Origin: an uncultured bacterium | Lineage (GTDB): Bacteria > Actinomycetota > Acidimicrobiia > Spongiisociales > UBA5794 | NCBI GenBank assembly: GCA_963801165.1 | Contig: CAWDDT010000006.1 | Span: 32,001-96,000 of the forward strand | Direction: 5' to 3' | DNA length: 64,000 nucleotides | Shown here: piece by piece, positions 30,343 to 48,639 of the stretch | Layout: each line of letters opens with the position of its first letter | Numbering within the stretch: the stretch's first letter is position 1 | The notes under the pieces: model-generated | Database searches by the model: none | What the model was told of the DNA's origin: nothing | What the model saw: the letters and a program-made list of their open reading frames with translations, nothing else | Translations under genes and position numbers: made by a program

Positions 30343-30486
30343 TCAGCGTCCGAAGGCGCGGTCCACCGAGTGGTTCGCCGCGCTCTCGGCAGCGGACCGC
30401 TTTGCCTTCTTGTCGAGGCGTTTCTCCTTGAGGCCTTTGGCGGCCACCTTCTTGGTATTTCGGCTGCCCTTGTCCTTGGTACCCAT
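30343..30486 (-). CDS. 47-aa Lys-rich microprotein (paralog of 48398-48520)
   Basis: GGGAGG SD; MGTKDKGSRNTKKVAAKGLKEKRLDKKAKRSAAESAANHSVDRAFGR; not in the ORF track. Confidence 0.75.
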   Translation of the reverse strand: MGTKDKGSRNTKKVAAKGLKEKRLDKKAKRSAAESAANHSVDRAFGR

Positions 30487-30835
30487 TAGTGCCTCCCGGC
30501 CGGCGACCGAAAGCGGTCACCATATGCCATTGTCCCACACCCGGCGGTCCAGAGCACGCGACATCGGATCGATTAGAGCGTAGAGATAAGAGCCGTGTCC
30601 GGGTGCGCCTATCAATGCGGCGCACAGCATAAGCAGTCCCCGTCGCCCGTCGCCACCGATTCCCGTCTTGCAGGTGGGGATCAACGTCCGCTCTCTTCAT
30701 GCCATCCGCTGCAAGCACCAACCGAGTCTGGAGCTGCTGGCTCTCAGCTTCAGCCGACCACGTCCCGGAGAAGCGAATCCCAATGCTCTTTTGCCCGTCT
30801 AGTCCATGGACCAAGCGTCGACGCTTCGCCGCACC

Positions 30836-31210
30836 CTATGGCTCGGGGTCCGTTTGGACCGCGGTTTTCTGTTTGAGTAGCGCCGAGATTCTCTGGCGGG
30901 TGACGCTGAAGAGCGCTGCGATGGTCTCGATGGTGAGTCCTTCGGCTCGCAAGGCGAGGGCTTCGGCGGCTCGGAACTCGGCGCCGGCGGTTTCCAGAGT
31001 GGCCATGTTGGTTGATATCAATTCGACCATGCGGGGGGTGTCCTCGGCCTCGATCAACTCGACGAGGCTTTCTCCTGCTTGAAGTCGCCGACGGAGATGG
31101 TGAGCACGTCGCTGGAGCTGGCGGTTGCGCTCGACGTTGTCCGCAACGGCGGCTTCGATGTCGGTGAGGGCATCGAGGAGTCGCCCGATCGGTGCATCGT
31201 GTGTGGCCAT
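30836..31210 (-). CDS. Small protein with C-terminal HTH
   Basis: LRAEGLTIETIAALFSVTRQRISALL HTH after a helical N-terminus. Confidence 0.7.
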   Translation of the reverse strand: MATHDAPIGRLLDALTDIEAAVADNVERNRQLQRRAHHLRRRLQAGESLVELIEAEDTPRMVELISTNMATLETAGAEFRAAEALALRAEGLTIETIAALFSVTRQRISALLKQKTAVQTDPEP

Positions 31211-31313
31211 TGGCGCGAGTAAAGCAGGCGCAATCCCCCATGTCAACGGCTATAGCCGAAATAGCTATTGCGACGAGACGACCGGGTCCGTATGCTTGCG
31301 TCTGTAACCGAAG

Positions 31314-31589
31314 GTGCAGCTGAACATCGGAGTTGATGTGGCAATTGGAGTTTTCGGGTTCCTGGTCCTGCTGGCGGTGCTGGCCGGCATCGCTCTACCG
31401 ATCGTGGCGCTGGTCGATCTCGTTAGGCGCCCTGCCGCTACGTGGGCGTTGGCGGGTCACAATCAGCTCGTCTGGGCATTGATCATCGTGTTTGTAGGCT
31501 TCGTCGGACCGATCCTGTATCTGCTGATTGCGCGCCCCGCCCTCGATGTCGCGGAAGCGCGGCGCGAAGCGACGGCGGGCCCCGCATAA
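31314..31589 (+). CDS. PLDc N-terminal domain small membrane protein
   Basis: ALVDLVRRP...WALIIVFVGFVGPILYLL. Confidence 0.75.
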   Translation: MQLNIGVDVAIGVFGFLVLLAVLAGIALPIVALVDLVRRPAATWALAGHNQLVWALIIVFVGFVGPILYLLIARPALDVAEARREATAGPA

Positions 31590-31759
31590 TACGAACAAGA
31601 AGGTGCGCGACGAGAGCGAATCTTCTTGGAGGTGATCCTGTCGTCGAAGGCACCGAGGCCATCCACACCACACAACGGTGGCGTCGATAGAATCGGTTCG
31701 AATCGGTTTGAGGCGGGTTCCTTCCGGCGCCGACGCCGGCTGGCAGATCGGGAGACTCC

Positions 31760-33901
31760 ATGGTCGGGTTGGCGTCGCTGGCGGCGCCGCACGGGGCCGT
31801 TCTCGAGGTATTGATCTCGTTTACCGCGCTCTTGGTGAGTGCCAGGCTTCTCGGTGCGGTCGCTTTGAAATTGGGCCAGAGCTCTGTCGTCGGCGAGCTA
31901 CTCGCTGGCGTTGTGTTGGGGCCGTCGCTTGTCGGTCGGCTCTGGCCGCCGGTGACCGCCTGGTTTGCTCCGCGCACCGAGATCGGGGGGGCGCTGCTGG
32001 GGTTGGTTGGCCTTCTGGGTGCCATCTTCCTGTTGATGCTGACCGGTCTCGAGACGGATGTCGACCTCATTCGGAGGAATGCGCGTGTGGCGGCAGGCGT
32101 GGCCTTGGGGGGCCTCGTCTTGCCGTTTGGGCTCGGCTACCTGGTCGCGTATGCCGTTCCCGAGCGTCTCGTAGCGAACCCGGGAAGACCGGTCGTTTTT
32201 GCGCTCTTCTTCGCCACCGGGCTTGCCGTGTCGGCGATACCCGTCATCGCCAAGATCCTGTTGGATCTCGGGTTGATTCGGCGCAACTTCGGCCAGACAG
32301 TGCTGGCCGCCGGGATGATCGACGACACAGCGGCATGGATACTCCTTTCGGTGGTGCTCGCACTTGCGACTGAAGACTCCACATCACCATGGACCATGGC
32401 GCTGGCAGTTGCCCGAATTCTCTTGTTCATCAGCCTCACATTGTCGGTGGGTCGCTGGCTGGTCGACCGTGCCCTCGAACTCATCCAGGATCGGGGGTCT
32501 ACGCCGGACGGTGTTCTAACCCTCGCGGTAGCGGTTGCTTTAGGTTTTGGGGCGGTCGCCATGGCGTTCGGTATTGAAGCGGTCATGGGCGCATTTCTCG
32601 CCGGCGTTGTCCTTGGTCTGAACCCGCGCCTCCCGGTCGAGGTCGTGGGGCGTTTACACACGATGGCTTTGGCTGTTTTCGCACCGGTCTTCTTTGCGAT
32701 AGCCGGCCTCCAGGTCGACGTGTCGGTCCTGAGCGATGGAGCTACTCTCCGCATCGCGCTACTGACCATTGTCGTTGCTATCGTCGGCAAGTGTCTCGGG
32801 GCGGCGGCGGTTGCCCGGTGGATGGGCGTCGATGCATGGACTTCGCTCGCATATGGCGCAGCACTGAACGCTCGGGGTGCGATCGGGATCATCGTTGCGT
32901 CGATAGGGCTAGATCTGGGCATTCTGTCGAAAGAGATCTATGCGATCATCGTGCTGACCTCCGTGGTGACGTCGATGCTTGCTCCACCGCTCGTGCGCAG
33001 CTTTCTCCGACGGGTGGCAGTCGACAGCGAAGAGGACAAGCGTCTGACGCGGGAGGCTGCAGGGCCGATCCTAGGTCGAACCCCGCGCCGGATCCTTGTC
33101 CCAATACGGGCTCGGCCGGAGGTGGCTCCTGTCCACGAGGTGGCTTCTGAAGTGGTGCGGTCGATCAACCCGTCGGCTCAGGTGACACTTCTCACTGTCG
33201 TCGCCGATACAGAGTCGAGACCACTGGCCGCCGAGCTACTGGAAACGCTAGTTCCTCGCTTTCGTCCTGCATCGCCGCAATGCGTTGTGGATGTCGGCGA
33301 TGATCCGACAGCGGCGATCCTCCGCTTTGCCCAGACCGGGTTCGACCTGGTCGTTGTCGGTGCGCCCGAGACTGAGAGTGGCGAGGGGCTCTTCGACCCG
33401 GTTGTCGATACGGTGACGCGCCTTGCCCCCTGTCCTGTGCTCATCGTGGCCGGGCATGGGCTCGGGTTCGTTTCGTGGCCGCCGCGTCGGATCATGGTGC
33501 CGGTCGCTGGCACCGACACTTCGCTCGGGGCGGCCCGTCTCGCTTTGACGCTTGCCGAGGGCGCAGAGGTGAGTGCTGTGCACGTAGTTCCGCGATCGCG
33601 GTACGCCACGAGCGGTGCGCCTGGGCGGCTCCTGGAGAGGCGCGTGTCACTTGGGCGTGAGGTCGTCGCTGAGATCGAACAGCTCGGCAAGTCCTACGCC
33701 GCCACTGTGTCCGGCCATGTCCTGACGAGCAGCGGCGACTTTGTCGAGGACATTCTCGACGCGATCGCACGTCAAGATATCGATCTACTCGTCATGGGCA
33801 GCAGCCTGCGCCCCGGATCCGCCCGGCTTCACCTCGGACCAAGAGTGGAGGAGATCCTGCAACTCGCTCCATGCCCCGTGCTGCTCGTCAACGCCACGTG
33901 A
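31760..33901 (+). CDS. CPA2 cation:proton antiporter with two C-terminal USP domains
   Basis: VVGELLAGVVLGPS, TGLETD, AGMIDD, NARG; RRILVP/RRIMVP, DLVVVG/DLLVMG and APCPVL USP motifs. Confidence 0.9.
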   Translation: MVGLASLAAPHGAVLEVLISFTALLVSARLLGAVALKLGQSSVVGELLAGVVLGPSLVGRLWPPVTAWFAPRTEIGGALLGLVGLLGAIFLLMLTGLETDVDLIRRNARVAAGVALGGLVLPFGLGYLVAYAVPERLVANPGRPVVFALFFATGLAVSAIPVIAKILLDLGLIRRNFGQTVLAAGMIDDTAAWILLSVVLALATEDSTSPWTMALAVARILLFISLTLSVGRWLVDRALELIQDRGSTPDGVLTLAVAVALGFGAVAMAFGIEAVMGAFLAGVVLGLNPRLPVEVVGRLHTMALAVFAPVFFAIAGLQVDVSVLSDGATLRIALLTIVVAIVGKCLGAAAVARWMGVDAWTSLAYGAALNARGAIGIIVASIGLDLGILSKEIYAIIVLTSVVTSMLAPPLVRSFLRRVAVDSEEDKRLTREAAGPILGRTPRRILVPIRARPEVAPVHEVASEVVRSINPSAQVTLLTVVADTESRPLAAELLETLVPRFRPASPQCVVDVGDDPTAAILRFAQTGFDLVVVGAPETESGEGLFDPVVDTVTRLAPCPVLIVAGHGLGFVSWPPRRIMVPVAGTDTSLGAARLALTLAEGAEVSAVHVVPRSRYATSGAPGRLLERRVSLGREVVAEIEQLGKSYAATVSGHVLTSSGDFVEDILDAIARQDIDLLVMGSSLRPGSARLHLGPRVEEILQLAPCPVLLVNAT

Positions 33902-34082
33902 GCGCGTACTTCCACACCCACCACTATCCCGCCGACCGGGTTTGTGTGGATCGAGGACCTTACGTTGACGGACAACGTGGCCGACATCCCGGCCCCGAAT
34001 ATTCCACCCACCGGGGGTCGACGAATCGCCCGCACCGCGACCGCAAAAGACGCCTGGAGAATCGGCTCAACTCCGGGAAGAT

Positions 34083-35315
34083 GTGACCGATCAGCTCGCG
34101 ATGGAACGCACCATTTCGCAGCGAGTTCGAACGCTCAGTTCACCGCTGGCTGTCCTTATCGCGGTCATCCTGTTCACTCTTGTCATCGGTCTCGACCTGG
34201 TTACTGGTCCCGAGTTGTCGTTTTCGTTCTTCTACCTACTGCCTGTTGTCTTCGTCTCACTGAGGTGGGGCACTCCTCAGGGGCAGGCTGCCGCGCTGGG
34301 AGCCGCCTCTGCCTGGTTCCTGATCGAGGTGTCGTCGGGCGGTCAACAGAACCACGCGCTCATACCTCTATGGAACGCCGCGGTGCGTTTCGGCTTCTTC
34401 AGCCTTGTCTCCTGGCTGCTCGACAGCCTCCACCTGGCGCTGGAGCGAGAGACCGCGCTAGCCCGGACAGACCCGCTCACCGGGCTCCCAAACCGGCGAG
34501 CGTTCAGTGAGCTCGCAGACCGTGAGCTGGCTCGCTCCGCACGGCTCGACGAGACTCTCGCCCTCGTGGTGATCGACCTCGACGACTTCAAACTCGTTAA
34601 CGACCGCCACGGACACGAGGGGGGAGACGAGGTGCTCTGCCGCTTCGCCGCCACCGCACGGCGGGCCCTCCGATCTGTCGATGTCATAGCTCGTACGGGC
34701 GGAGACGAGTTCGCGGTGCTCCTCCCCGATGTGGATGCTGCGACGACGGTCGGGGTACTGCAGCGTCTGCGAGGGGCACTCGGTTCTGAGGACGCGGGTG
34801 GTATCAGGTGCTCGATGGGTGTGGCGTGCCTAACTGGCGGCACCCTATCTGACGCTTTGCGGTCGGCGGACAAGGCCCTGTACGGGGCGAAGACAGCCGG
34901 AAAGGGATCCATTCTGCTCGTTGATCTTGTGTCGGAATCGCCACAGGACCCGCGATCGGTCGCTGCGGGATCCGCGGTCCCCGATGCGCTCGGCCAGCCG
35001 GACTGCACGTGGTCACCCGGCGGCTCCCGCGACCCGAGCGGTTCGATCTTCACCGCAGCGGGGTTTCTGGCGAGCTCAAGTGGGCCTGTAGCGGTGTGTG
35101 CCGGCAGCCCACCGAGTGGTAGAGAAGACGGTGGCACGGTGCGGACTCTGGAGGGTGTACCGCCGGACTCGGCGACCAGCTCTGGCGAGCCTGGGACCTG
35201 GGACCCATATCCGCAAGTGCTGATCAGGAGGAACGGAGACATGGTGGTCTACGACCAGGGGTCCAAGCCGGATCCGCAGCCGCGGCGAGGCGTCGTGGCT
35301 CATCTCGCGTCGTAG
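34083..35315 (+). CDS. Membrane-bound diguanylate cyclase (GGDEF)
   Basis: TDPLTGLPNRR, DLDDFKLVND.HGH..GD, RTGGDEF, ADKALY.AK; low-complexity C-terminal extension. Confidence 0.88.
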   Translation: MTDQLAMERTISQRVRTLSSPLAVLIAVILFTLVIGLDLVTGPELSFSFFYLLPVVFVSLRWGTPQGQAAALGAASAWFLIEVSSGGQQNHALIPLWNAAVRFGFFSLVSWLLDSLHLALERETALARTDPLTGLPNRRAFSELADRELARSARLDETLALVVIDLDDFKLVNDRHGHEGGDEVLCRFAATARRALRSVDVIARTGGDEFAVLLPDVDAATTVGVLQRLRGALGSEDAGGIRCSMGVACLTGGTLSDALRSADKALYGAKTAGKGSILLVDLVSESPQDPRSVAAGSAVPDALGQPDCTWSPGGSRDPSGSIFTAAGFLASSSGPVAVCAGSPPSGREDGGTVRTLEGVPPDSATSSGEPGTWDPYPQVLIRRNGDMVVYDQGSKPDPQPRRGVVAHLAS

Positions 35316-35438
35316 GTGGGTTGGGATCTGATCCGAGCGGCAACGTCAATTGTGATTGCAGTTGATGTCAAAGACCGGTCACCGGGACGCAGTACAGCCG
35401 TATAGTCCGTCGTGTCGCCACCTCGTCGAGAATTGAGC

Positions 35439-36578
35439 ATGTTCCCAACGGCGCAGCAAACCTGCTTCTTGATCGCGGACATCTCGGGCTACACCGGATA
35501 CCTAGCCGGCGTGGAACTCGATCATGCCCAGGACATCCTCGCGGACCTGATTGGTGCGGTGGTTTCCGCCCTGGGGCCTAACTTCGCCCTTGCCAAGCTC
35601 GAAGGCGACGCCGCCTTCACGTACTTGCCGGCGGATACGATCGACGGGTCGATGCTGCTCGACACTATCGAGCGCTGTTACTTCGGGTTTCGCCGTCGCC
35701 GGCGCGACGTGCGACAGGCGACGTTGTGTACTTGCGCGGCCTGCAGCCGCATCCCCGACCTCGATTTGAAGTTCGTCGTGCATCACGGCAGCGCAATCGT
35801 TCAGGAGGTTGCGGGGAGCCGCGAGCTCCTCGGGTCGGATGTGATCGTCGTCCACCGGATGCTCAAGAACGATGTGGCAGCCGACCTGGACATGGCCGCG
35901 TACGCACTGATCAGCCAGCAATGCATCGAAGTCGCCGGCCTCGATCCGGCGGCGCTGGCCATGCGACGCCACACCCAGATGTACGACGGAGTCGGCGAGG
36001 TGTCGGCATGGGCCCACGATCTGCACCGTCGCTGGGAAGAAGAGGAGGCTCGGGGGCGCGTCATCGTGACTCCCGACGAGTCGATCCTCACCGTGTCGAT
36101 ACCGACCCGTGTCCCGCCGCAGCTCGCATGGGAGTTCCTGACCAAACCCGGCCAGCGTATGTCGTGGCAACCGTGGGTGACGGCGGTGGAGACCAAGGGC
36201 GCCACCGGTGGGCGGCGCGGGATCGGGTCCGCCAACCACTGCATGCACGGGGCGGACTCGGTGATCGAGGAGATCCTCGACTGGCGCCCGTATGACTATG
36301 TGACCGACCGCACAATCATCGAGACGCCACATGGCCCGCTCCGGCTCCTCCACACGATCGAGTTCGAACCGACCGCGAGCGGAACGCTGATCCACTATCG
36401 GTTCGCTCCACCAGAGGCAGATGCGGAGCGGGAGCTCGCCGAGAAGGTGGGCAGTGAGTACGGCGCCGCCCTCCGCTCTTGTATCCCAGCACTCGTCGCA
36501 CAACTCGACGACGAGCTTGCGTCCCGTATCGCGGGCGGTGAGCCGGACCCCGACGCGGGCCGTGACGATGCCTGCTGA
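35439..36578 (+). CDS. DUF2652 (nucleotide cyclase-like) + SRPBCC domain protein
   Basis: IADISGYT, KLEGDA, CTCAAC, LKFVVHHG, VHRMLKN; C-terminal HCMHG..EEILDWRP. Confidence 0.82.
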   Translation: MFPTAQQTCFLIADISGYTGYLAGVELDHAQDILADLIGAVVSALGPNFALAKLEGDAAFTYLPADTIDGSMLLDTIERCYFGFRRRRRDVRQATLCTCAACSRIPDLDLKFVVHHGSAIVQEVAGSRELLGSDVIVVHRMLKNDVAADLDMAAYALISQQCIEVAGLDPAALAMRRHTQMYDGVGEVSAWAHDLHRRWEEEEARGRVIVTPDESILTVSIPTRVPPQLAWEFLTKPGQRMSWQPWVTAVETKGATGGRRGIGSANHCMHGADSVIEEILDWRPYDYVTDRTIIETPHGPLRLLHTIEFEPTASGTLIHYRFAPPEADAERELAEKVGSEYGAALRSCIPALVAQLDDELASRIAGGEPDPDAGRDDAC

Positions 36579-36664
36579 TCCGATGCCGTCCGCGACTGCG
36601 TGCACTGGAGCTCTTCAGCATCTTCCTAGCTAGGAGTGTGCTGAGTACACACCTCGATAGGGCT

Positions 36665-36775
36665 ACCGCCACGACGCCGATATCGCCCTTGGGCGGACCC
36701 GGCTGTGTCGATTGTGATGACGCCCCGAGCTTGCGTGAACTGGTAGCCCCCGCCGCCGACAGCCGAGCCGGGCTA
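36665..36775 (-). pseudogene. ~110-bp diverged fragment of a PSD-family gene
   Basis: Aligns by eye with 14407-14514 (GGGYQFTQARGVITIDT..GDIGVVAV). Confidence 0.75.
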
Positions 36776-36883
36776 GACAGAATCGGTGGTTCGCGAGACT
36801 TCGAGAAGCGGCAACTTTCGGGACCAGCCTCTATATCCGCGGGCTAGGCTCAGATCACCAAACCTTTCCAACTGGGGTGTTTC

Positions 36884-37693
36884 ATGTCCATACAGGACGA
36901 TCGGGTCACCGCCTTCCACGGCCTCCATGCCGCAGGGTGCTTCGTCATGCCAAACCCGTGGGACATAGGAAGCGCGGTGGTCCTCGAACGGCTCGGCTTC
37001 AAGGCGCTGGCGACGACGAGTGCCGGCCACGCATGGACGGTGGGCCGCGCCGACAACCAACTGTTGCTCGAGCAGACGCTTGAGCATCTTCGTGAGGTCG
37101 TTGGTGCCGTGGACGTACCGGTGAATGCGGATTTCGAGGGCGGTTTTGCGGACGATCCCGAGTCCGTGGCCAGGAACGTGAAGCTCGCCGCGGCGACGGG
37201 GATTGCCGGTATCTCGATTGAGGATTCCACCGGTCGCGAGGCCGAGCCCCTGTACGACTTCGACCTCGCCGTCGAGCGAGTTCGAGCCGCGCGCCTGGCC
37301 ATCGACGAAAGCGGAACGGGTATCGTGCTCACCGGTCGATCCGAGGGGTTCGTATGCGGGCGCCCCGACATCGATGAGACGATCCGCAGGCTGCGAGCCT
37401 ATGCGGAAGCCGGAGCCGACTGCCTCTACGCTCCGCGGATCGACAGTGTCGAGCACGTCTCTGCGGTCGTCGCCGCGGCGGCGCCGAAGCCGGTGAACCT
37501 CCTGATCAACGCCCCCTTCATGACGGTCGCAGAGGCAGCGTCTCTGGGAGTACGTCGAATCAGTGTCGGGGGCACGCTGGCCCGTGCCGCGTGGGCCGGA
37601 TTCCTCGACGCGGCGAGGGAGATCTCGAGCGAAGGGACCTTCTCCCGGTTCGTAGGTTTGCCGAACGTCGATGCGCTGTTCGCCGGGCAATAG
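36884..37693 (+). CDS. Isocitrate lyase/PEP mutase family protein
   Basis: MPNPWD, ALATTSAG, PVNADFEGG, SIEDSTG, AYAEAGADCLYAP, GVRRISVG. Confidence 0.92.
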   Translation: MSIQDDRVTAFHGLHAAGCFVMPNPWDIGSAVVLERLGFKALATTSAGHAWTVGRADNQLLLEQTLEHLREVVGAVDVPVNADFEGGFADDPESVARNVKLAAATGIAGISIEDSTGREAEPLYDFDLAVERVRAARLAIDESGTGIVLTGRSEGFVCGRPDIDETIRRLRAYAEAGADCLYAPRIDSVEHVSAVVAAAAPKPVNLLINAPFMTVAEAASLGVRRISVGGTLARAAWAGFLDAAREISSEGTFSRFVGLPNVDALFAGQ

Positions 37694-37719
37694 CTGCGGA
37701 GCGCGGCGTCCCGGCACCG

Positions 37720-38373
37720 TCTCGCTGCTTTCGCCCCTGCTCCGGTGGCTAGAACAATGTGTCGACCGCAACGATGGTGATGCCTGTTGCCACAACCACT
37801 GGAGCGGGATGAGCGTTGCACCACGCAGGCGGCCCGCCGACCGGCGTATCGCCCACACGAGGAGTATGGCCGAGGCGACGAGATATGCGACGGCAACCGC
37901 ATAGCCAGGGGCCCTCTGCGCATAGCGGGGCAGTTCGGCGAACGCGATGCGGAATAGGAGCAGGGCAGTGAACCCGACGGAGAACACTGCAACCACGGTG
38001 GTCTCGTCACGAAACAATCGACCGCCGTGACCGCCTGAAACGGCGTCGTGGTAAGTGCGTGCGTCGGCGACGGCGACCGGCCAGCGGCGAAACCCCAGGT
38101 CAACGAGCCTCCCATGATGCCCGCCGCCAAGAGGGAAGAGAGCCCGACCGCTATGGCCGTGATCGGCGGCTCGGTCTGGGGAAGGTAGGTGTCCATGAGT
38201 GAGAAGAACTGCGTCTCGTAGTCAGACTCGCACTGAGCGCGCCGAGAAGCAGTACGGTCAGCACCATCGCCGTCCCCACACAGGAACTGGCCGCCAACGC
38301 GTCGTCCAGCCGCGGGTTGATCCCCTGAGGTCGACGAGTCATCGGAGGCACTCGGACATCTCACGCAATCCAA
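37720..38373 (-). pseudogene. Probable frameshifted membrane-protein gene
   Basis: Hydrophobic TM-like segments distributed over three frames; boundaries approximate. Confidence 0.35.
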
Positions 38374-41678: not shown

Positions 41679-42961
41679 CGGCTTTCTCCGGGACTATCGA
41701 CGAGGCTGAGCGCCGACGCGTTGTTGGGTGAGGTGCGGTGGGTGGCAAACACCCACACCCGCAGTCCGAGGAAGCGGACAACGGTGGCGGCAGCGTTGGC
41801 GGTGATTAGCACGGCCAGCTGGGCGAACCGGGTGGCGTTTGGGGCGAGATGGTTCAGGACCGCCAGCGAGCCCGAGGTGATCGCCAATGCCGCCGCGAAC
41901 ACAACCAGGCCCTCGGCGAGGTGCGTCCACAATCGATGGCGGCCGCTGATCCCAAAGGTGAATCGGCGGTTGGCGGCCGTGTTGAACACCGCCGTCGCCG
42001 CCAGGGCGACCGAGTTCGACCACTGTGGGGTCAGCCGGGTTCGTAGGGTCAGGAAGAGCAGCACATATGAGATGGTGCTGACCACGCCAACGCCGGCGAA
42101 CCGGCCCACCTGGCCTAGAAAGGAAGCCGGCGCAGCGGTAGCGGCACGGACCGTGAGGTTGACGCGGATCTCGTCCAGCGGGATGTCGCCCCGCGCCAGG
42201 CTACCTGCCAGCCGGGCGAGGCCCGCAAGGTCGGCCCTGGCGGTGGTGACGATATCGACCTTCGAGTCGGGGTCGTCGACCCAATCGACCGGCACTTCGT
42301 ATACGCGCAGGCCTGCGCGTTCGGCGAGCAGCAAAAGCTCGGTGTCGAAGAACCATCCGGTGTCGCGCACGTAAGGCAGCAGCTCGTGAGCCACGTCTGC
42401 CCTGATGGCCTTGAACCCGCATTGGGCGTCGCTGAACCGAGCGGCCATCAGTCCCTTGAGCAGGAGGTTGTAGCCTCGGGAGATCACCTCGCGTTTGGGT
42501 CCTCGCACTACGTGCGACCTGCGGTTGAGCCGGGTACCGATTGCAATGTGGGAATGTCCGCTGATCAGCGGGGCGATCAGCGGGAGCAAGGCATCGAGGT
42601 CGGTAGACAGGTCGACGTCCATGTAGGCGAGTACCTGCGCATCGGAGGCGGCCCAGACTGTCGCCAGTGCTCTGCCCCGACCCTTCTGTTCGATCCTGAC
42701 TGATACCACGTTGTCGAAGCGAGCTGCGAGGCTCGCGGCGATCATCGCCGTTGCGTCGGTGCTGGCATTGTCGGCGATCGTGATGCGACACGGGTACGGG
42801 AAGTGGTATTCGAGGTGGTCGTGAAGCCGCTCGATCGACGAGGCAAGATCGGCTTGTTCGTTGTAGACCGGGACGACGATGTCGACGATCGGTGTGGAGA
42901 GAGCGAAATCCGATCCGATACGAGGTGCGGAGACGTTGTGTTGCATGTCCCCATGGTTCAT
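41675..42961 (-). CDS. Bifunctional GT2 (polyprenol-phosphate sugar synthase) / GtrA flippase
   Basis: VVPVYNE, IADNASTD, YMDVDLST, DAQCGFKA, WFFDTE; C-terminal 4-TM GtrA domain (NTAANRRFTF). Confidence 0.92.
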   Translation of the reverse strand: MNHGDMQHNVSAPRIGSDFALSTPIVDIVVPVYNEQADLASSIERLHDHLEYHFPYPCRITIADNASTDATAMIAASLAARFDNVVSVRIEQKGRGRALATVWAASDAQVLAYMDVDLSTDLDALLPLIAPLISGHSHIAIGTRLNRRSHVVRGPKREVISRGYNLLLKGLMAARFSDAQCGFKAIRADVAHELLPYVRDTGWFFDTELLLLAERAGLRVYEVPVDWVDDPDSKVDIVTTARADLAGLARLAGSLARGDIPLDEIRVNLTVRAATAAPASFLGQVGRFAGVGVVSTISYVLLFLTLRTRLTPQWSNSVALAATAVFNTAANRRFTFGISGRHRLWTHLAEGLVVFAAALAITSGSLAVLNHLAPNATRFAQLAVLITANAAATVVRFLGLRVWVFATHRTSPNNASALSLVDSPGESR

Positions 42962-42979
42962 CGGGAAACTTCAGCGAGG

Positions 42980-43007
42980 CTGTGCAGTCCCTGGGAATTC
43001 GCTGAGA
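42980..43007 (-). promoter_or_regulatory. OmpR-family (MprA-box-like) direct repeats TCTCAG-N5-TCCCAG-N5-GCACAG
   Basis: Three hexamers at 11-bp period just upstream of the GT2/GtrA start. Confidence 0.55.
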
Positions 43008-43508
43008 GCACGCCCGTCGGGTGGCCTCATGCTCGAGCGTCTCGTGCCGGGGCACGAGCATCAGCAATGCGCCGCAAGACTCCCGAAGTTGCCGCTCGTC
43101 TTGTCGTCGCTACGTCTCGGATGGTGCCGGCCACTCGTTCGAGAGCAGCCGCGATCGGGACGGTGGCCGGCCTAGGGGATATGGGTGTGTGTGTCTCACA
43201 GTCGTGGGCTGCGGGCAAGCAGGTTGGCATGTACCCGACGAACGGACGGCGGAAACGATCAGTCATGCCGCTCTTCAGCACGGCCGAGTCTCGCTCGGCG
43301 AACAGCCAGTGCCGCGAGAAAACACGTCCTTGACGACGCTACGTGTGCGTTGGCGGCCTTTGGGGTGTACCATGAAACCGCGACCACCAGTCGCCCCTCA
43401 CTTCTCGTTGAAGCATCCTCTGGTCCAACACCGGGCCGGCCCTCGTTGATGAGTGACTGTCGCCAGGCTTGCCCCCATCGAGGCGGGCCCTCATCGAAGG
43501 AGGACGCT

Positions 43509-44696
43509 GTGAAGACAGCAGCCGCCAGTGTGTCGATCGGGTTCGTCAGCACCTACCCGCCAACCGTCTGTGGCCTTGCCACCTATACGGAGTCGTTGCT
43601 CGGGGCCATCGCGGGTAATCGGGGAACCCATATAGGGCTAGGCGTGGTGGACGTCGGCGATGACAATCGACATGTCGACCGGCGCCGGGTAGTCCATCGC
43701 CATGTTGCCGGCGATTCCGGCTCGCTCGAGCGAGCCGCCCGAGTGCTGAACACTTTCGACACCGTGTCGATCCAACACGAGTATGGGATCTTCGCCGGAC
43801 CGGACGGCGAGGAGGTGCTCGACTTGATGGCGGCGATCTCCGTGCCCACGGCGGTCACCCTCCACACAGTCCTTGCCGATCCAACCCGGCACCAACGAGC
43901 GATCACCGACCAGCTCGCTGACGAAGCCGAGCTGCTGGTGGTAATGAGCGAGACGGGGTCGACCAGGCTGACGACCAGCTACGGGATCGATCCGGATCGG
44001 ATCGAGGTGCTCCCTCATGGCGCAAACACTCTGTTCGCGGGACCGTCGCTGGCTGCTGGCGGCAGACCGCTGGTCCTCACGTGGGGTCTGATCGGCCCCG
44101 GGAAGGGTCTGGAATCAGCGATCGAGGCTTTCGCCGAGCTCCGCGAGCTCCGACCTGCCCCGCGGTACCTGATCGCAGGAGCCACGCACCCTCACGTCAG
44201 AGAGAGCGCCGGTGAGGCCTACCGCCAGAGTCTCATCGAACTGACAGCGGCGCTCGGCCTGAACGACATCGTCGAATTCGACGACCGATACCTGGACAGG
44301 GTCACCCTGGCACGTCTCGTCCGCAGCGCCGACGTGGTGTTGTTGCCGTACTCATCGACCGAGCAGGTCACATCCGGCGTTCTCGCCGAGGCGATAGCCG
44401 CGGGAAAGCCTGTGATCGCAACCCGATTCCCGCACGCGGTCGAGCTGCTGACGGGCCGCGCCGGCATGACGACACCGCATGGTGACACCATTGCGATGGC
44501 CAAGGCGGTTCGGTTTGTGCTGACAGACCACGAAGCCAGATCGAGGATGGGACGGGAGGCTCGGCGACTGGCCGACGGGTGGTTCTGGCCGACAATCGGT
44601 CGGAAGTTCACCGATCTGATGACGGGCATGGTCGAGATGAGAGCCAGCGTCGATGACAGGGGAGAGATGAAGGAGGTCTGCCGTGCCGCCGGATGA
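43509..44696 (+). CDS. GT4 family glycosyltransferase
   Basis: AAGGAGG + GTG; STYPPTVCGLATY, QHEYGIF, TWGLIGPGKG, GATHP, QVTSGVL. Confidence 0.9.
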   Translation: MKTAAASVSIGFVSTYPPTVCGLATYTESLLGAIAGNRGTHIGLGVVDVGDDNRHVDRRRVVHRHVAGDSGSLERAARVLNTFDTVSIQHEYGIFAGPDGEEVLDLMAAISVPTAVTLHTVLADPTRHQRAITDQLADEAELLVVMSETGSTRLTTSYGIDPDRIEVLPHGANTLFAGPSLAAGGRPLVLTWGLIGPGKGLESAIEAFAELRELRPAPRYLIAGATHPHVRESAGEAYRQSLIELTAALGLNDIVEFDDRYLDRVTLARLVRSADVVLLPYSSTEQVTSGVLAEAIAAGKPVIATRFPHAVELLTGRAGMTTPHGDTIAMAKAVRFVLTDHEARSRMGREARRLADGWFWPTIGRKFTDLMTGMVEMRASVDDRGEMKEVCRAAG

Positions 44697-45765
44697 TAGG
44701 GCTGAGGCGTCGGGCCATCCATCGTCGCCCCGGCGCGCCGGCTTGCCGGTACCGCGCTTCGATCACCTGCGTGCCCTCACTGACCACGCCGGGCTGTGGG
44801 AACATGCGAAGCTCCTGGTACCTCGTATCGATCACGGCTTCTGCACCGAGGACAGCGCACGCGCCCTCGTCGTTGTCTCGCGGCAAGCGGCCCTGACCGG
44901 TGCCCTGGAGGATCTCGCCGCCACCTATTTGAGGTTCGTCCTCGAGTCACGCACGAAGGCCGGGGCGTTCCGGAACCGCCGGGCCGCCGATGGCTCGTGG
45001 CAAGAAGACGGCGGTAGCGACGACAGCCAGGGCCGGGCCTGGTGGGGGCTCGGTAGCGCGGCCCGGTTGGCACCAACCGAATCGATGCGGCGTGCCGCCA
45101 TGGACGCTTTCGCAACCTGCGGATTGTTCGAGTCGCCGCATCTGCGCGCCAATGCCTATACCGCGCTCGGTGTGGTCGAGGTGCTGGTTGCCAACCCCGC
45201 TCACACCGGTGCCCGCGACCTCCTCGAAGAAACGGCCGGTGTCATCGCCGATGCCGCACGGAGCGCCATCCCATGGCCTGAGGATCGGCTCACCTATGAC
45301 AACGCTCGTCTCCCCGATGCGCTACTGGCCGCAGGGACGATTCTCGGTCGGCGGCGCCTCATCGCAGACGGCCTGCGGCTGCTGGAGTGGCTCGTCAACG
45401 TCGAGACGATCGGAGACCACTTCAGCTTTGCGCCTACATCCGGCTGGTCCATCGGTGAGCCGCGACCGGGATTCGACCAGCAGCCCGTCGACGCATGGGC
45501 GATGGCCGATGCCTGCCATCGGGCCTGGGTGGTCACTGGAGATTCGGTCTGGCGTGTCCGTGCACTCCGTGCCGCCCGGTGGCTGGTTGGTGGTAACGAC
45601 ATCGGGATCTCGCTGTACGACCCGGAGAGCGGAGCAACCTACGACGGCCTGCACAGCGACTCGGTCAACGAGAACCGGGGAGCGGAGTCCACGCTCGCCG
45701 GAATCGGAACGCTCCAGGTCGCGGCCTCATGCGAGGCAAGCCCCCGTCGCTTGGCGTTTCCATGA
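44683..45765 (+). CDS. Six-hairpin-like protein (elsewhere fused to GT4)
   Basis: GLWEHA, GFCTEDSARAL, SDDSQGRA, LTYDNARLP, FDQQP, DGL..VNENRGAESTL. Confidence 0.8.
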   Translation: MPPDDRAEASGHPSSPRRAGLPVPRFDHLRALTDHAGLWEHAKLLVPRIDHGFCTEDSARALVVVSRQAALTGALEDLAATYLRFVLESRTKAGAFRNRRAADGSWQEDGGSDDSQGRAWWGLGSAARLAPTESMRRAAMDAFATCGLFESPHLRANAYTALGVVEVLVANPAHTGARDLLEETAGVIADAARSAIPWPEDRLTYDNARLPDALLAAGTILGRRRLIADGLRLLEWLVNVETIGDHFSFAPTSGWSIGEPRPGFDQQPVDAWAMADACHRAWVVTGDSVWRVRALRAARWLVGGNDIGISLYDPESGATYDGLHSDSVNENRGAESTLAGIGTLQVAASCEASPRRLAFP

Positions 45766-47231
45766 TTACGCAGATCAAAGTGACTCGATCGGATGTCCGA
45801 CTTGTCCCGGACCTCCGCCGCATAATCGTCAAGCCGTACCTGCTCGAGGCCGGTGAGCAGGGCACGCGTAGCCGCACAGACGAGTTGCTCGAACGGATCC
45901 TGGCGCTATCCCCCCAGGAGGTTGCGCATGTCCTGGAGGAGGTCAGGGCCGGCTTCCTTGGTCGACACAGCGACCTCGACGACATCTTGCAGAGAGGCTT
46001 CTACGAGGTGGTGGACCTCGTGCCCGACCCATCTGGACTGTCCGAGGACATGCGGCGGGTCATCGGCGCCTTCTTCGTACACGAGTTCTCGCTCGAAGGC
46101 GCCGCGCTCACCAACCCGTCGATCGTTGCCGCTCCCGATCAATCCGGCACACCTTCCGGCTCGTTGCGCGTGATCGTGAGTTTGCGCGCTGTGGGTGAGG
46201 GTCACATCTCCTCGATCGAGTTCCGCTCAGGGCTGGTAGGGCGGCGAGGCCACATCGAGCTGGATCCCCCCGGTTCCCCCATTACCGGTATCCGCCGACC
46301 GCCAATGCTCGACAAGGCCCTGTTTGCGACCAAGCTCGATGAGATCGGCGCCGAGACGGAGCTCGCGGAAGAGGCATTGGGCCCGCTGCCCGCTCGATTC
46401 ACGATGGTCGAGCTCGAAGCTGCGCTGACCGAGCTGGACCGGCGAAGTGGGTCTTCGAGTGCGATCCAGCACGTGATACAGGCGATGCGTTGGTTGGCTT
46501 CATCGAACTACGAGCTGACCTTTGCGGAGGGCTCGGATCTTTCTCAGCGGGTGCTGTTCCCGAGCGGACTATCTGAAAGCCACGGCATGGAGGACGCCCG
46601 CCTCGTGCGGTTCACTGAAACAGACGGATCGGTCGTGTACTACGCCACGTACACGGCCTTCGATGGTTTCAGCATCCTCCCTCAGCTCGTGGAGACCACC
46701 GACTTTCGCTCGTTCCGGATAGCCACTCTCAACGGTCGGGCCGCAAGAAACAAGGGGATTGCTATCTTCCCGCGTCGGGTCGGCGGTCGCTACGCAGCTC
46801 TTGCTCGCTCCGACGGTGAGAGCAACTACCTCATGTTCTCCGATCATGTCCGCTTCTGGCACGAGGCAGAACGAATCCAGATCCCGACGAGTCCATGGGA
46901 GCTCCGCCAGATCGGCAACGCTGGTTCTCCGATCGAGACCGAAGCTGGGTGGCTGGTCGTGACCCACGCGGTCGGCCCGATGCGTCGCTACGTCCTCGGC
47001 GCGATTCTGCTCGACCTCGACGATCCTCGTGACGTCATCGGTCATCTCGAGGAGCCTCTTCTCACTCCCGAAGAGTCCGAGCGCGATGGGTACGTGCCAA
47101 ACGTCGTTTATTCGTGCGGATCACTGGTCCATGACGGCCAACTCGTGATTGCATACGGCGCGTCCGACACCGCGACAGGATTCGCATCGGTGCCGCTCGA
47201 TGACCTCCTCGGCGAGCTGTTGAAGCACTGA
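45762..47231 (+). CDS. GH130-family glycosidase/phosphorylase (long form)
   Basis: ALTNPSIV, GEGHISSI, GMEDAR, YATYTAFDG, NKG.AIFP, RDGYVPNVVYSCG. Confidence 0.9.
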   Translation: MITQIKVTRSDVRLVPDLRRIIVKPYLLEAGEQGTRSRTDELLERILALSPQEVAHVLEEVRAGFLGRHSDLDDILQRGFYEVVDLVPDPSGLSEDMRRVIGAFFVHEFSLEGAALTNPSIVAAPDQSGTPSGSLRVIVSLRAVGEGHISSIEFRSGLVGRRGHIELDPPGSPITGIRRPPMLDKALFATKLDEIGAETELAEEALGPLPARFTMVELEAALTELDRRSGSSSAIQHVIQAMRWLASSNYELTFAEGSDLSQRVLFPSGLSESHGMEDARLVRFTETDGSVVYYATYTAFDGFSILPQLVETTDFRSFRIATLNGRAARNKGIAIFPRRVGGRYAALARSDGESNYLMFSDHVRFWHEAERIQIPTSPWELRQIGNAGSPIETEAGWLVVTHAVGPMRRYVLGAILLDLDDPRDVIGHLEEPLLTPEESERDGYVPNVVYSCGSLVHDGQLVIAYGASDTATGFASVPLDDLLGELLKH

Positions 47232-47245
47232 TCCTCCGAGCGGTT

Positions 47246-48283
47246 TCATCGACCGAGGAGACGGTGATAGAGCGACACATAGTCGTCGACCATCCTGGCT
47301 ACATCGAAACGTCCCTCAATCGAGCGACGCACGCCCTCGCGGCTGAGATGCCGAGCCTCCCCGATCGCATCGACGGTCGCTCCTCTGGTGGAGACGAGGA
47401 ACCCGTTGACTCCGGGTTGGATTATCTCCGGCATCGACCCTCGCCGGTGAGCGATTACCGGCGTGCCACATGCCATTGCTTCGACGACGCTGAACCCGAA
47501 GGGCTCATCGAAGTCGATCAAATGAAGCAGCGCCGCTGCAGTGCCCAGGACTGCCTGGCGTTGCTCCGGCCCAACCGACCCCAGGTAGATGACGCGGTCG
47601 CCATCGATATGGGGCCGGACGAAGGTTTCGAAGTACTCCTGGTCCTGAATGATGCCCGCGATGACAAGGGGGCGTCCCGCCGCGGCAGCAACCTCGATGG
47701 CGGCAGCCGTTCCCTTGTCGGGATGGATCCGACCGAAGAAGACGAGGGCGTCCCCGCCCGGGCCTACGTCAAATGAGTCGATGTCGATTCCGTGGTGGAT
47801 CGTCGCGGCATACTCCAGAGCCGGGTGCCGATCGGCGTCGCTGATTGCCACGTAGTTGACACGATCGGAGTAGGCGAGGTACGCGGGCAGGGTGGCGTCT
47901 GAGGCAAACCCGTGGATCGTAGTCACGACGGGTGTGTTGACCAGCCTGGTGAAGGCGAGGGGAAGGAAGTCGAAGCTGTTGTGGATCAGATCGAACTCGT
48001 CTGCCCGCTCGAACAAGCCGGCAATGTGAAGCGCCTCCCATGTCTTGGCGTCGAGGGACGGATCTTCCGCGTACCCGGTGGGAGCCACGCCCACAAGTTT
48101 CGCTGCAGTCACCGAATCGGCGGTAGCGAAGAGCGTCGTGTCGACGCCCCGAGCCACGAGGCCTTCGGTCAGCAGTGAGGCGAACTGCTCCCACGGGCCG
48201 TAGTGGCGCGGCGGAACCCTCCATGCAATGGGAGCGAGAACTGCCACGCGTAGCGGCGCGGCCGTACGGTGGGCGGAGAGCAC
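47246..48283 (-). CDS. GT4 family glycosyltransferase
   Basis: VPPRHYGPWE, FGRIHPDKG, EPFGFSVVEAMACGTPV. Confidence 0.92.
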   Translation of the reverse strand: MLSAHRTAAPLRVAVLAPIAWRVPPRHYGPWEQFASLLTEGLVARGVDTTLFATADSVTAAKLVGVAPTGYAEDPSLDAKTWEALHIAGLFERADEFDLIHNSFDFLPLAFTRLVNTPVVTTIHGFASDATLPAYLAYSDRVNYVAISDADRHPALEYAATIHHGIDIDSFDVGPGGDALVFFGRIHPDKGTAAAIEVAAAAGRPLVIAGIIQDQEYFETFVRPHIDGDRVIYLGSVGPEQRQAVLGTAAALLHLIDFDEPFGFSVVEAMACGTPVIAHRRGSMPEIIQPGVNGFLVSTRGATVDAIGEARHLSREGVRRSIEGRFDVARMVDDYVSLYHRLLGR

Positions 48284-48397
48284 GGTATTACCTCGATCTC
48301 ATCGGAGGGCCGGTGAGATGAACAATTGGTCCGGGCATCGACCCTGCAGCTGCGGCATTCGGTCGTTCATGGAGAGCCCAGGGTTGTCGGCGTCGGC

Positions 48398-48520
48398 TCA
48401 ATCGATCTTGGACGACTTGGCGGCGGCGTCCCGCTTGCCCTTCTTGGCGAGGCGCTTTTCCTTCAGGTTCTTGGTGGCGAGCTTCTTGGTGTCTTTACTG
48501 CCTTTGTCCTTGGTTCCCAT
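48398..48520 (-). CDS. 40-aa Lys-rich microprotein (paralog of 30343-30486)
   Basis: GGAGG SD; MGTKDKGSKDTKKLATKNLKEKRLAKKGKRDAAAKSSKID. Confidence 0.75.
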   Translation of the reverse strand: MGTKDKGSKDTKKLATKNLKEKRLAKKGKRDAAAKSSKID

Positions 48521-48639
48521 GAGTGCCTCCAGGCCGGCCGCCGGAGCGGCGGCCGATCCCATCGTGGCAGGCTCAAATCCGACGACGAGATCGTCGAGCA
48601 AACGAGGTGAGCCTGCCGTGTCGTTGGGCGAGAAATCAA

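What the first reader, a model, noticed from the sequence alone, without database searches (positions are those of the whole stretch)
30343..48565. Two paralogous Lys-rich microproteins with conserved promoter-hairpin-SD architecture
Seen: 30343-30486 (MGTKDKGSRNTKKVAAKGLKEKRLDKKAKR...) and 48398-48520 (MGTKDKGSKDTKKLATKNLKEKRLAKKGKR...) lie 18 kb apart and include synonymous differences (GGT/GGA, AAG/AAA). Each is preceded by TGn + -10 (GACAAT / CACGAT), an 8-bp hairpin whose sequence differs but whose pairing is kept (GGTGACCG/CGGTCGCC vs GGCCGCCG/CGGCGGCC), and then GGCC(G/T)GGAGGCACT-N-ATG. One copy is below the ORF-track cutoff. Inference: a real, probably unannotated family of basic nucleic-acid- or ribosome-binding microproteins made from 5'-stabilised mRNAs.
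Basis: partly seen in the sequence, partly recalled or inferred. Interest (0 to 1): 0.7.

Follow-up and report, generated by a model that had tools for sequence, protein, structure and literature searches.

The report
Conserved basic microprotein genes with leader hairpin
Two tiny, strongly positively charged protein genes in this Acidimicrobiia genome belong to a real but unnamed family of about a thousand relatives, each gene carrying its own conserved promoter, RNA hairpin and ribosome-binding site, and their function is still unknown.

Summary
Both ORFs lie on the minus strand: A at 30343-30486 (47 aa) and B at 48398-48520 (40 aa). They share 25 of 33 aligned residues and are the only two copies in this genome.

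The ORFs code for protein. Across 93 distinct homologues pN/pS is 0.29 in this frame, against 1.9 and 0.94 in the shifted frames. Relatives occur mostly in Acidimicrobiia MAGs and in some other Actinomycetota. All carry the label "hypothetical", and none matches Pfam, NCBIfam, PDB, PHROGs, PADLOC or Rfam.

The cis architecture is conserved beyond the two copies:
- a -35-less extended -10 (TGnGACAATG);
- a GC hairpin starting about 7 nt after it, with compensatory changes in all 8 pairs (79-82% of cells paired, 31-38% in slid controls);
- a perfect GGAGG 5 nt before the ATG in 67 of 92 leaders.

Gene neighbours vary, so each gene is an autonomous unit. The 59-aa forms found by gene callers translate the hairpin and Shine-Dalgarno site and are not supported.

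My best reading is a highly expressed, net +10, single-helix protein that binds nucleic acid, probably RNA or the ribosome. The mRNA would be protected by a 5'-terminal stem-loop. Nucleic-acid binding, the transcription start and stabilisation are inferred, not shown. I rate this a new family of a known general kind, of moderate interest.

The parts
30343..30486 (-). Microprotein gene copy A, 47 aa (long-tail subfamily, C-terminal ...NHSVDRAFGR), stop included
   Evidence: 100% self-match and one of only 2 copies in the genome; purifying selection in this frame; the exact sequence is present in public protein collections
30492..30496 (-). Shine-Dalgarno GGAGG of copy A, 5 nt before the ATG
   Evidence: GGAGG present in 78 of 92 family leaders, with 5-nt spacing in 67; complementary to the CCUCC of this genome's 16S 3' end
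30502..30521 (-). Leader hairpin of copy A: 8-bp stem (one G.U pair), CUUU loop
   Evidence: the stem forms in both the MFE and the centroid structure; covariation across 92 leaders
30529..30537 (-). Extended -10 promoter element of copy A (TG-G-GACAAT); transcription start predicted near 30523 +/- 2
   Evidence: T 89/92, G 87/92, A 83/92, T 86/92, following G 84/92; no -35 conservation; the start site is inferred, not mapped
48398..48520 (-). Microprotein gene copy B, 40 aa (short-tail subfamily), stop included
   Evidence: groups with L014 of another family of the same order (support 93/82) in the tree
48526..48530 (-). Shine-Dalgarno GGAGG of copy B, 5 nt before the ATG
48535..48555 (-). 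Leader hairpin of copy B: 8-9 bp all-GC stem, 3-nt loop
   Evidence: leader MFE -27.2 kcal/mol, z -2.09; the most stable hairpin directly upstream of any of the 1725 GGAGG-start sites in the genome
48561..48569 (-). Extended -10 promoter element of copy B (TG-C-CACGAT); transcription start predicted near 48554-48557
   Evidence: a near-identical variant, TG-C-CAGGAT, occurs in L014; the start site is inferred

Best explanation
Each locus is an autonomous, probably monocistronic microgene. A -35-less extended -10 promoter of the housekeeping sigma type (TGnGACAATG) would start transcription about 6-7 nt downstream, at the foot of a GC-rich 7-9 bp hairpin. The mRNA would then begin with a 5'-terminal stem-loop. 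An unpaired GGCC-n-GGAGG Shine-Dalgarno follows, and then the ATG five bases later.

The stem-loop most likely shields the 5' end from the 5'-end-dependent RNases that this genome encodes (RNase E/G and RNase J). Together with the perfect SD, it would give high, stable expression.

The product is a 31-48 aa protein with net charge about +10, free of Cys and Trp. It has a Gly-rich flexible N-terminus (MGTKDKGG) and one long basic helix with an invariant L-K-x-K-R-L-x-K core. It most likely acts by binding a polyanion, with RNA or the ribosome favoured over DNA, as an accessory and not a core factor.

Shown: coding status, family, conserved cis elements, hairpin covariation, autonomy from neighbours. 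Inferred: transcription start, stabilisation, expression level, helix, binding target.
For: Coding: pN/pS is 0.288 over all pairs of 93 distinct CDSs (codons 2-30), against 1.91 and 0.94 in the two shifted frames. Third-position diversity is 0.40, against 0.17 and 0.225 at positions 1 and 2.

Family size:
- 40 proteins at E<=0.01.
- 31 representatives of 50%-identity clusters at E<=1e-3.
- 958 proteins at E<=1e-3 with a profile of distant members.
- 103 genome loci.

Promoter: the near-invariant TG, A-11, T-7 and following G fit the functional Corynebacterium extended -10 consensus TGnTATAATnG (PMC3917453, passages read). There is no -35 signal. The distance from the -10 to the ATG is 39-42 nt in 65 of the 83 leaders with a recognisable -10.

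Hairpin:
- In the MAFFT alignment 79.1% of cells are paired, against 31-37% in slid controls. All 8 pairs show double changes. The covariation score is 0.351 against a shuffled 0.220, reached by 0 of 500 shuffles.
- In the model-fitted alignment the figures are 82.2% paired and a score of 0.358.
- The sense strand folds better than the antisense strand in 55 leaders, worse in 35 and equally in 2. G.U pairs number 91 in sense MFE structures against 56 in antisense.
- The SD stays unpaired in folds of both leaders.

SD strength: GGAGG is present in 78 of 92 leaders. A crude upper bound for the genome is 545 of 4616 long ORFs.

RNases: RNase E/G and RNase J families are both present in the genome. 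5'-terminal stem-loops as stabilisers are established for ompA, papA and aprE (titles seen in the reference list of PMC3997798).

Autonomy: the commonest downstream Pfam family is seen in 14 of 86 neighbours and the commonest upstream family in 5 of 88.

Protein: net +10, pI 10.35-10.82. AlphaFold2 predicts a helix at residues 11-44 with mean pLDDT 68.6.
Against: - There are no expression, transcription-start, half-life or binding data of any kind.
- RNAalifold on the full 92-row MAFFT alignment returned no consensus structure.
- Single-sequence z-scores are weak: only 28 of 92 fall below -2, and leader A has z -0.67.
- In aligned columns sense-strand wobble pairs (G.U) do not clearly outnumber antisense-type A/C cells: 60 against 60 in MAFFT columns and 56 against 52 in model columns. 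Only after dropping the loop-closing pair is it 53 against 32. RNA-level, sense-strand function is therefore favoured but not proven.
- Hairpins upstream of an SD are not rare in this 64% GC genome: 146 of 1725 sites.
- Distribution is patchy: 56 of 301 sampled genomes of the class and 13 of 24 scored genomes of the same family, G000 left out. This argues against a core ribosomal role.
- The genes are not in ribosomal-protein operons.
- Distant members in another family of the phylum keep the protein but not the hairpin module.
- The structure model has only moderate confidence.
Confidence: 0.55

Rival explanations
1. The hairpin is mainly a translational or stability operator bound by the microprotein itself. 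This would be negative feedback of the ribosomal-protein-leader type, and not a passive 5' stabiliser.
For: A basic RNA-binding product next to a conserved structured leader, 4-5 nt upstream of the SD, is the classical layout of ribosomal-protein autoregulation. The hairpin co-occurs tightly with the gene (92 of 100 loci). The short GGCC segment between the stem and the SD is conserved in sequence.
Against: Stem bases covary freely, and loops differ in sequence and length (CUUU, CUC, AGCU, UUUC and others). There is therefore no conserved recognition surface apart from the GC clamp. Members of another family in the phylum keep the protein without the hairpin. No binding data exist.
Confidence: 0.2
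2. The protein is a nucleoid-associated, histone-H1-like DNA binder or a general polyanion-protecting protein (stress or dormancy). It would not be an RNA or ribosome partner.
For: Lys/Ala-rich basic composition with K+R at 37% (median) and net +11 (median). Patchy, accessory distribution, with 2-4 copies in some genomes. No linkage to translation genes apart from EF-P in 3 of 86 downstream neighbours.
Against: There is no repeat structure of the AKKA/PKKA type. The invariant LKxKRLxK core suggests a specific contact and not bulk charge. Nothing in the data separates DNA from RNA as the target.
Confidence: 0.2
3. The real product is the longer, roughly 59-aa protein that many gene callers report. 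It would start at an ATG or GTG at the hairpin foot, possibly as a leaderless mRNA. Alternatively that upstream start defines a regulatory uORF.
For: Many database entries are 55-62 aa with an MAAxxxxGREAL extension. An ATG or GTG lies 2-9 nt after the -10 in 39 of 92 leaders, close to where transcription is predicted to start.
Against: Only 21 of those 39 are in frame; 10 and 8 fall in the other two frames. The other 53 of 92 leaders have no such codon. In copy A an in-frame TGA blocks the extension. The 'extension' is exactly the hairpin 3' arm plus the SD, and it varies by compensatory base changes, not by conservative amino-acid changes. A perfect SD at optimal spacing precedes the internal ATG.
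Confidence: 0.05
4. The ORF is a Lys-codon-rich leader peptide that controls the downstream glycosyltransferase gene (copy B) by attenuation.
For: 13 Lys codons in 40. The GT4 gene follows on the same strand 114 nt downstream, and no terminator was found between them. GT4 follows the microgene in 18 of 93 loci.
Against: The amino-acid sequence itself is under purifying selection. Most loci have other neighbours, and copy A faces a convergent cupin gene. No alternative terminator or antiterminator structure was seen.
Confidence: 0.03

Closest known systems
5'-terminal mRNA stabiliser stem-loops (E. coli ompA and papA leaders; B. subtilis aprE leader)
   Same: A stable hairpin predicted within 0-2 nt of the 5' end is followed by a strong ribosome-binding site, in an organism that has RNase E/G and RNase J. 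The aprE case combines a 5' stem-loop with ribosome binding (title seen in the reference list of PMC3997798).
   Different: The transcription start and the half-life effect are not measured here. This hairpin is conserved as a family-specific module over about 90 loci, with covariation.
Lineage-specific small basic ribosomal or ribosome-associated proteins (bS21, actinobacterial bS22 and bL37, Thermus bTHX, E. coli Sra); names recalled, no sequences used
   Same: Size of 30-50 aa, very high K/R content, no Cys, predicted simple helix, lineage-restricted. bS21 (PF01165) was not found in this genome.
   Different: No sequence similarity to any PDB chain, ribosome structures included, nor to Pfam or NCBIfam models. 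The genes are not in ribosomal-protein operons. They are present in only a fraction of related genomes.
Ribosomal-protein leader autoregulation
   Same: A structured leader lies directly upstream of the SD of a gene for a basic protein that may bind RNA.
   Different: The loop and stem carry no conserved sequence, there is no detectable mimicry of an rRNA site, and binding is untested.
Extended -10 (TGn) promoters of Actinomycetota, which largely lack a recognisable -35 (Corynebacterium functional consensus TGnTATAATnG, PMC3917453)
   Same: TG at -15/-14, A-11, A-9, A-8, T-7 and a G just downstream are near-invariant. No -35 is conserved.
   Different: Position -12 is G or C instead of T in nearly all members. 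The sigma factor is unknown.

Membership tests
Any named protein family (Pfam, NCBIfam, PHROGs, PADLOC) | Significant match to a curated profile | tested here: not met
   0 families for both proteins at E<=10 (Pfam, NCBIfam) and at E<=1 (PHROGs, PADLOC). ESM Atlas returned only unnamed clusters and no usable named hit.
Known small ribosomal proteins (bS21, bS22, bL37, bTHX, Sra) | Sequence similarity to a chain of a solved ribosome | tested here: not met
   A profile of 41 family members searched against 177,635 distinct PDB sequences gave one hit at E 0.9 (an ankyrin repeat protein) and nothing else at E<=10.
Known small ribosomal proteins (bS21, bS22, bL37, bTHX, Sra) | Near-universal presence in the clade and/or location among translation genes | tested here: not met
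   Present in 56 of 301 sampled genomes of the class, or 55 of 237 high-quality ones. Neighbours are diverse, with EF-P in only 3 of 86.
Known small ribosomal proteins (bS21, bS22, bL37, bTHX, Sra) | Physical association with ribosomes | not testable with these tools
   Needs sucrose-gradient co-sedimentation or cryo-EM.
5'-terminal stabiliser stem-loop | Conserved stem-loop maintained by compensatory changes | tested here: met
   All 8 of 8 pairs show double changes. 79-82% of cells are paired against 31-38% when partners are slid. The covariation score is reached by 0 of 500 shuffles. Caveat: RNAalifold gave no consensus on the raw alignment.
5'-terminal stabiliser stem-loop | Stem begins within a few nt of the transcript's 5' end | tested here: inconclusive
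   The stem starts 7 nt after the last base of the -10 hexamer in copy A and 6 nt in copy B. The spacing from the -10 to the ATG is tightly constrained. The start site is predicted only, and no RNA runs were listed.
5'-terminal stabiliser stem-loop | Lengthens mRNA half-life; host has 5'-end-dependent RNases | tested here: inconclusive
   RNase E/G (E 8.9e-105) and RNase J C-terminal domain (E 1.2e-18) are present in the genome. Half-life is not testable with these tools.
Rfam cis-regulatory RNA families | Match to a covariance model | tested here: not met
   0 matches at gathering score on the whole window and 0 at E<=1 on 30300-30650.
Attenuator leader peptides | Fixed downstream regulated operon; peptide sequence itself unconstrained | tested here: not met
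   Downstream genes vary, with the top family in 14 of 86. The peptide has pN/pS 0.29.
Type I toxins / membrane-active peptides | Hydrophobic transmembrane or amphipathic segment | tested here: not met
   The sequences show no hydrophobic stretch. K+R is 37% (median) and the helix is charged throughout.
Extended -10 housekeeping-type promoter | TG at -15/-14 with A-11 and T-7 at a fixed distance from the gene | tested here: met
   T 89/92, G 87/92, A 83/92 and T 86/92 in alignment A3. Promoter activity itself is not testable here.

The most novel reading that the evidence does not exclude
The family is an unrecognised lineage-specific ribosome-bound protein of Acidimicrobiia and some other Actinomycetota. 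These lineages lack bS21, and the protein would be a functional analogue of bS21, bTHX or Sra, sitting on rRNA near the mRNA channel or platform. Its own 5' hairpin-SD leader would double as the feedback operator that sets its level.
Probability: 0.15. Interest if true: 0.7.

Novelty: new variant of a known kind. Interest (0 to 1): 0.45.

Why it matters
Small proteins are routinely missed or mis-started by gene callers. This is a clean case with about a thousand members, no family model and a wrong 59-aa start in many records. It also carries a conserved promoter, leader and SD module. That module could serve as a ready-made strong expression cassette for high-GC Actinomycetota. It could also serve as a test bed for 5'-end-dependent mRNA decay in a class with almost no genetics. 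If the protein proves to be ribosome-associated, it would add a lineage-specific component to the translation apparatus of a widespread soil and sediment group.

Tried and rejected
Expression: the look-up of sequencing runs on window:27000-35000 with kind rna listed no RNA holder.

Supplements of papers were not requested.

Fusions: the search for longer forms gave 26 proteins of 87-152 aa. All but one had no Pfam domain; the exception carries PF01817 on a 503-nt contig. I read these as upstream over-extensions, not informative fusions.

Mobile-element origin: no relative was found in viral contigs, where 40 pattern hits gave none confirmed. None was found in 50,697 phage records or 72,556 plasmid records.

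Generic repeat: the pattern TGN[GC]A[CG]AATG occurs 57 times in the genome, against about 71 expected from base composition. Only copy A combines it with the hairpin, the SD and a microORF.

Terminators: none was found on the minus strand after either gene. Folds of the 3' flanks were not better than shuffles.

Conserved partner gene: none was found in Acidimicrobiia loci. None was found in 36 loci of other Actinomycetota, where the largest shared cluster covered 4 of 36.

Structure comparison: fold search was not run, because a single helix at pLDDT 68.6 would give meaningless matches. Complex prediction was not used, because no protein partner is claimed.

Literature:
- A peptide-string search found 0 papers.
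- A keyword search for lysine-rich ribosome-associated small proteins in Actinobacteria listed 15 of 19 papers. Judging by titles and abstract starts only, none concerns this family.
- On this basis I found no description of the family in print. Subscription journals and supplements were not searchable.

Tree: the backbone is poorly resolved, because there are 47 columns for 87 rows. Only the placement of A in the long-tail clade and the B+L014 pair (93/82) are used.

Unpublished genomes:
- The tallies (53 of 401; f53 18 of 26) include matches in G407, G369, G436, G534, G486 and G325.
- The tally (44 of 61) includes G730, G712 and G706.
- Their loci (L118, L120, L123) were left out of the sequence-level work.

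Full report
WHAT IS THERE. Copy A is 30343-30486 (47 aa) and copy B is 48398-48520 (40 aa). They align without gaps over the first 33 residues with 25 identities (E 1e-14). The differences include synonymous ones. For codons 2-30, pS is 0.54 and pN is 0.126. A six-frame search of the whole assembly (4.55 Mb, 13 contigs, 98% complete) finds only these two copies. The window is contig C6:32001-96000 of that assembly.

IT IS A PROTEIN-CODING FAMILY.
- The word-indexed search returned 40 relatives. All are unnamed or labelled 'hypothetical protein', and one comes from an Acidimicrobiia MAG.
- The exhaustive HMMER search of 1.84 billion cluster representatives found 31 at E<=1e-3.
- A profile of distant members found 958 proteins at E<=1e-3 among 4452 candidates, again all 'hypothetical' or 'uncharacterized' and with no precomputed Pfam domain.
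- A scan of one genome per species confirmed 103 loci. Of these the best 80 were kept, and most of their record titles name Acidimicrobiia or Actinomycetota MAGs.
- The family consensus is MGTKDKGGRSxKKAAAKGLKEKRLDKKAKRAAHxSxxNQSVDRxF, with K4, L19, K20, K22, R23, L24 and K26 invariant in 41 sequences.
- Over 93 distinct coding sequences pN/pS is 0.288 in the proposed frame, against 1.91 and 0.94 in the two shifted frames. Diversity is highest at third positions: 0.40, against 0.17 and 0.225.

IT HAS NO NAME.
- Pfam and NCBIfam gave nothing at E<=10. PHROGs and PADLOC gave nothing at E<=1.
- A family profile searched against all PDB chains gave only an ankyrin hit at E 0.9. I therefore see no sequence relation to any solved ribosomal protein.
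- The ESM Atlas gave only unnamed clusters at 0.88-0.89, and no usable named hit.
- Two literature searches found nothing on the family.
- The exact 47-aa copy A is present in public protein collections. The 40-aa copy B is not.

THE CIS MODULE IS CONSERVED. I extracted the region upstream of the ATG from 98 loci where my pattern found the ORF, which gave 92 distinct leaders. The same layout recurs in them.

1. A block TG-n-[G/C]-A-[C/G]-A-A-T-G. In the 92 rows, T is kept in 89, G in 87, A-11 in 83, T-7 in 86 and the following G in 84. Nothing is conserved where a -35 would lie. The block fits the functional extended -10 of Corynebacterium housekeeping promoters, TGnTATAATnG, a group in which the -35 is often unrecognisable (PMC3917453, passages read).

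2. A GC-rich stem beginning about 7 nt after the hexamer.

3. GGCC-n-GGAGG.

4. The ATG. GGAGG is present in 78 of 92 leaders, and 67 of them have exactly 5 nt between it and the start codon.

The distance from the end of the -10 to the ATG is 39-42 nt in 65 of the 83 leaders with a recognisable -10. A covariance model of the whole module matched 92 of 100 loci at E<=0.01. That model was built from many of the same sequences.

THE HAIRPIN.
- I wrote an 8-pair helix from copy A onto the MAFFT alignment. 79.1% of cells form standard pairs, against 30.8-37.3% when partners are slid by 1-3 columns.
- All 8 pairs have compensatory double changes (91 cells, against 43.8 in shuffles). The covariation score is 0.351 against 0.220, reached by 0 of 500 shuffles.
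- The model-fitted alignment gives 82.2% paired and a score of 0.358. That alignment leans toward the structure.
- Against this, RNAalifold on the raw 92-row alignment predicted no consensus.
- Single-sequence stability against mononucleotide shuffles is unimpressive in this GC-rich context: z below -2 in 28 of 92.
- Strand test. The sense strand folds better in 55 leaders, worse in 35 and equally in 2. G.U pairs number 91 in sense MFE structures against 56 in antisense. Column counts of G.U against A/C cells are 60:60 and 56:52, and 53:32 without the loop-closing pair. An RNA structure on the mRNA strand is therefore favoured, but only moderately.
- Both window leaders fold into the 5' hairpin with the SD left single-stranded.
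- Among 1725 GGAGG-N4-7-start sites in the genome, 146 have a strong hairpin just upstream. Copy B ranks first and copy A twelfth. No other Lys-rich microORF shares the layout.

WHAT THE HAIRPIN PROBABLY DOES. With transcription starting the usual 6-7 nt after the -10, the stem would sit 0-2 nt from the 5' end. 5'-terminal stem-loops stabilise mRNAs in E. coli (ompA, papA) and B. subtilis (aprE, together with ribosome binding). I saw those paper titles in the reference list of PMC3997798, and the rest is established knowledge. The genome encodes both an RNase E/G and an RNase J, the enzymes such structures obstruct. The loops differ in sequence and length and the stems covary freely. This fits a generic structural role better than a sequence-specific operator, though autoregulation is not excluded.

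THE 59-AA FORMS ARE OVER-EXTENSIONS. Many database entries start 12 codons upstream (MAAxxxxGREAL-M...). Those 12 codons are the hairpin 3' arm plus the SD. An ATG or GTG occurs 2-9 nt after the -10 in only 39 of 92 leaders. Its frame relative to the main ATG is 0, 1 and 2 in 21, 10 and 8 cases respectively. Copy A has an in-frame TGA in that stretch.

AUTONOMY AND HISTORY.
- Copy B sits between an RRM-domain gene and a GT4 glycosyltransferase, which is followed by a convergent GH130 gene.
- The GT4 and GH130 arrangement recurs in 18 and 14 of 93 loci respectively.
- Overall, downstream neighbours are diverse: Glycos_transf_1 in 14 of 86, PFK in 5 and EF-P in 3. Upstream neighbours are diverse too: ABC_tran in 5 of 88 and RRM in 2.
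- Copy A lies between an HTH protein and a convergent cupin gene. None of the neighbour clusters shared between loci includes a real neighbour of copy A.
- In the tree, A falls in the 47-aa 'long-tail' clade with relatives of the same family. B pairs with L014, from another family of the same order (93/82), among 'short-tail' forms. L014 also carries a near-identical -10 variant, TGCCAGGAT against copy B's TGCCACGAT. With pS 0.54, the two copies are old paralogues or separate acquisitions and not a recent duplication.
- No relatives were found in phage, viral or plasmid collections.

RANGE.
- 21 of 41 closest genomes carry it.
- 56 of 301 sampled genomes of the class carry it, and 6 of those 56 have two copies.
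- 53 of 401 sampled genomes of the phylum carry it. The hits concentrate in two other families: f53 with 18 of 26 and f66 with 16 of 22. A wider sample of f66 gave 44 of 61. These tallies include a few unpublished genomes, named under Tried and rejected.
- In f66 the protein is kept (MASKDKGG.K..KK......LKEKR.AKKAKK), but the leaders differ and no common hairpin module is evident.
- A few contigs are labelled Gemmatimonadota, Armatimonadetes, Acidobacteriota or Proteobacteria. Their sequences nest inside the clades formed by the Acidimicrobiia and other Actinomycetota members, so they are probably mis-binned.

THE PROTEIN. Both copies have net charge +10, with pI 10.82 and 10.35. The family median is net +11 with 37% K+R. 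No member has Cys or Trp. AlphaFold2 with 22 sequences predicts one helix at residues 11-44 at moderate confidence (pLDDT 68.6). I infer a polyanion binder. The strong promoter, leader and SD point to abundance. Patchy presence and multiple copies point to an accessory role. bS21 was not found in this genome, but I recall that it is generally missing in Actinomycetota, so this says little. I cannot separate an RNA or ribosome target from a DNA target with the tools at hand.

VERDICT. This is a real, conserved, unnamed microprotein family with a family-specific extended -10, 5' hairpin and SD expression module. Its interpretation is supported for 'real family' and 'conserved structured leader', and untested for 'nucleic-acid or ribosome binding' and 'stabilised mRNA'. 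I rate it a new family of a known general kind, with interest 0.45.

Noticed in passing
window 30151-30206: A 12-bp tandem repeat (consensus CAGGCTTGACCG, 4.7 copies, 86% matches) lies in the intergenic gap between the convergent cupin gene (29575-30129, +) and microgene A.
   Followed up: partly
window 45729-48283: A GT4 glycosyltransferase (47246-48283, -) and a convergent GH130-family gene (45729-47231, +) form a pair that is syntenic downstream of the microgene in 18 and 14 of 93 related loci respectively. This may be a pathway for a mannoside or a compatible solute.
   Followed up: partly
window 48602-49213: An 84-aa RRM-domain RNA-binding protein gene (48959-49213, -) lies upstream of copy B. 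A gap of about 390 nt separates them and holds only a 128-aa ORF with no Pfam match (48640-49026). An RRM gene is upstream in only 2 of 88 loci.
   Followed up: partly
loci L003-L013, L022-L053 and database proteins P0002-P0034: Gene callers often start family members about 12 codons too early (MAAxxxxGREAL...). They are translating the leader hairpin and the Shine-Dalgarno site.
   Followed up: yes
L029, L035, L064, L092, L096 (record titles): Family members sit on contigs binned as Gemmatimonadota, Armatimonadetes, Acidobacteriota, Kiloniellales and Gammaproteobacteria. They nest within the clades formed by the Acidimicrobiia and other Actinomycetota members, so bin contamination is likely.
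   Followed up: no
G000 contig C6, reverse-strand offsets 213440-214586 (outside the window): Four near-identical copies of a unit beginning TGCCACAATGGCGATGAGGGC... are spaced about 370-400 nt apart. They were seen while scanning for the -10 motif and may be tandem paralogous small genes.
   Followed up: no
window 31760-33901: A Na+/H+ exchanger fused to tandem universal-stress-protein domains (713 aa) lies near copy A.
   Followed up: no
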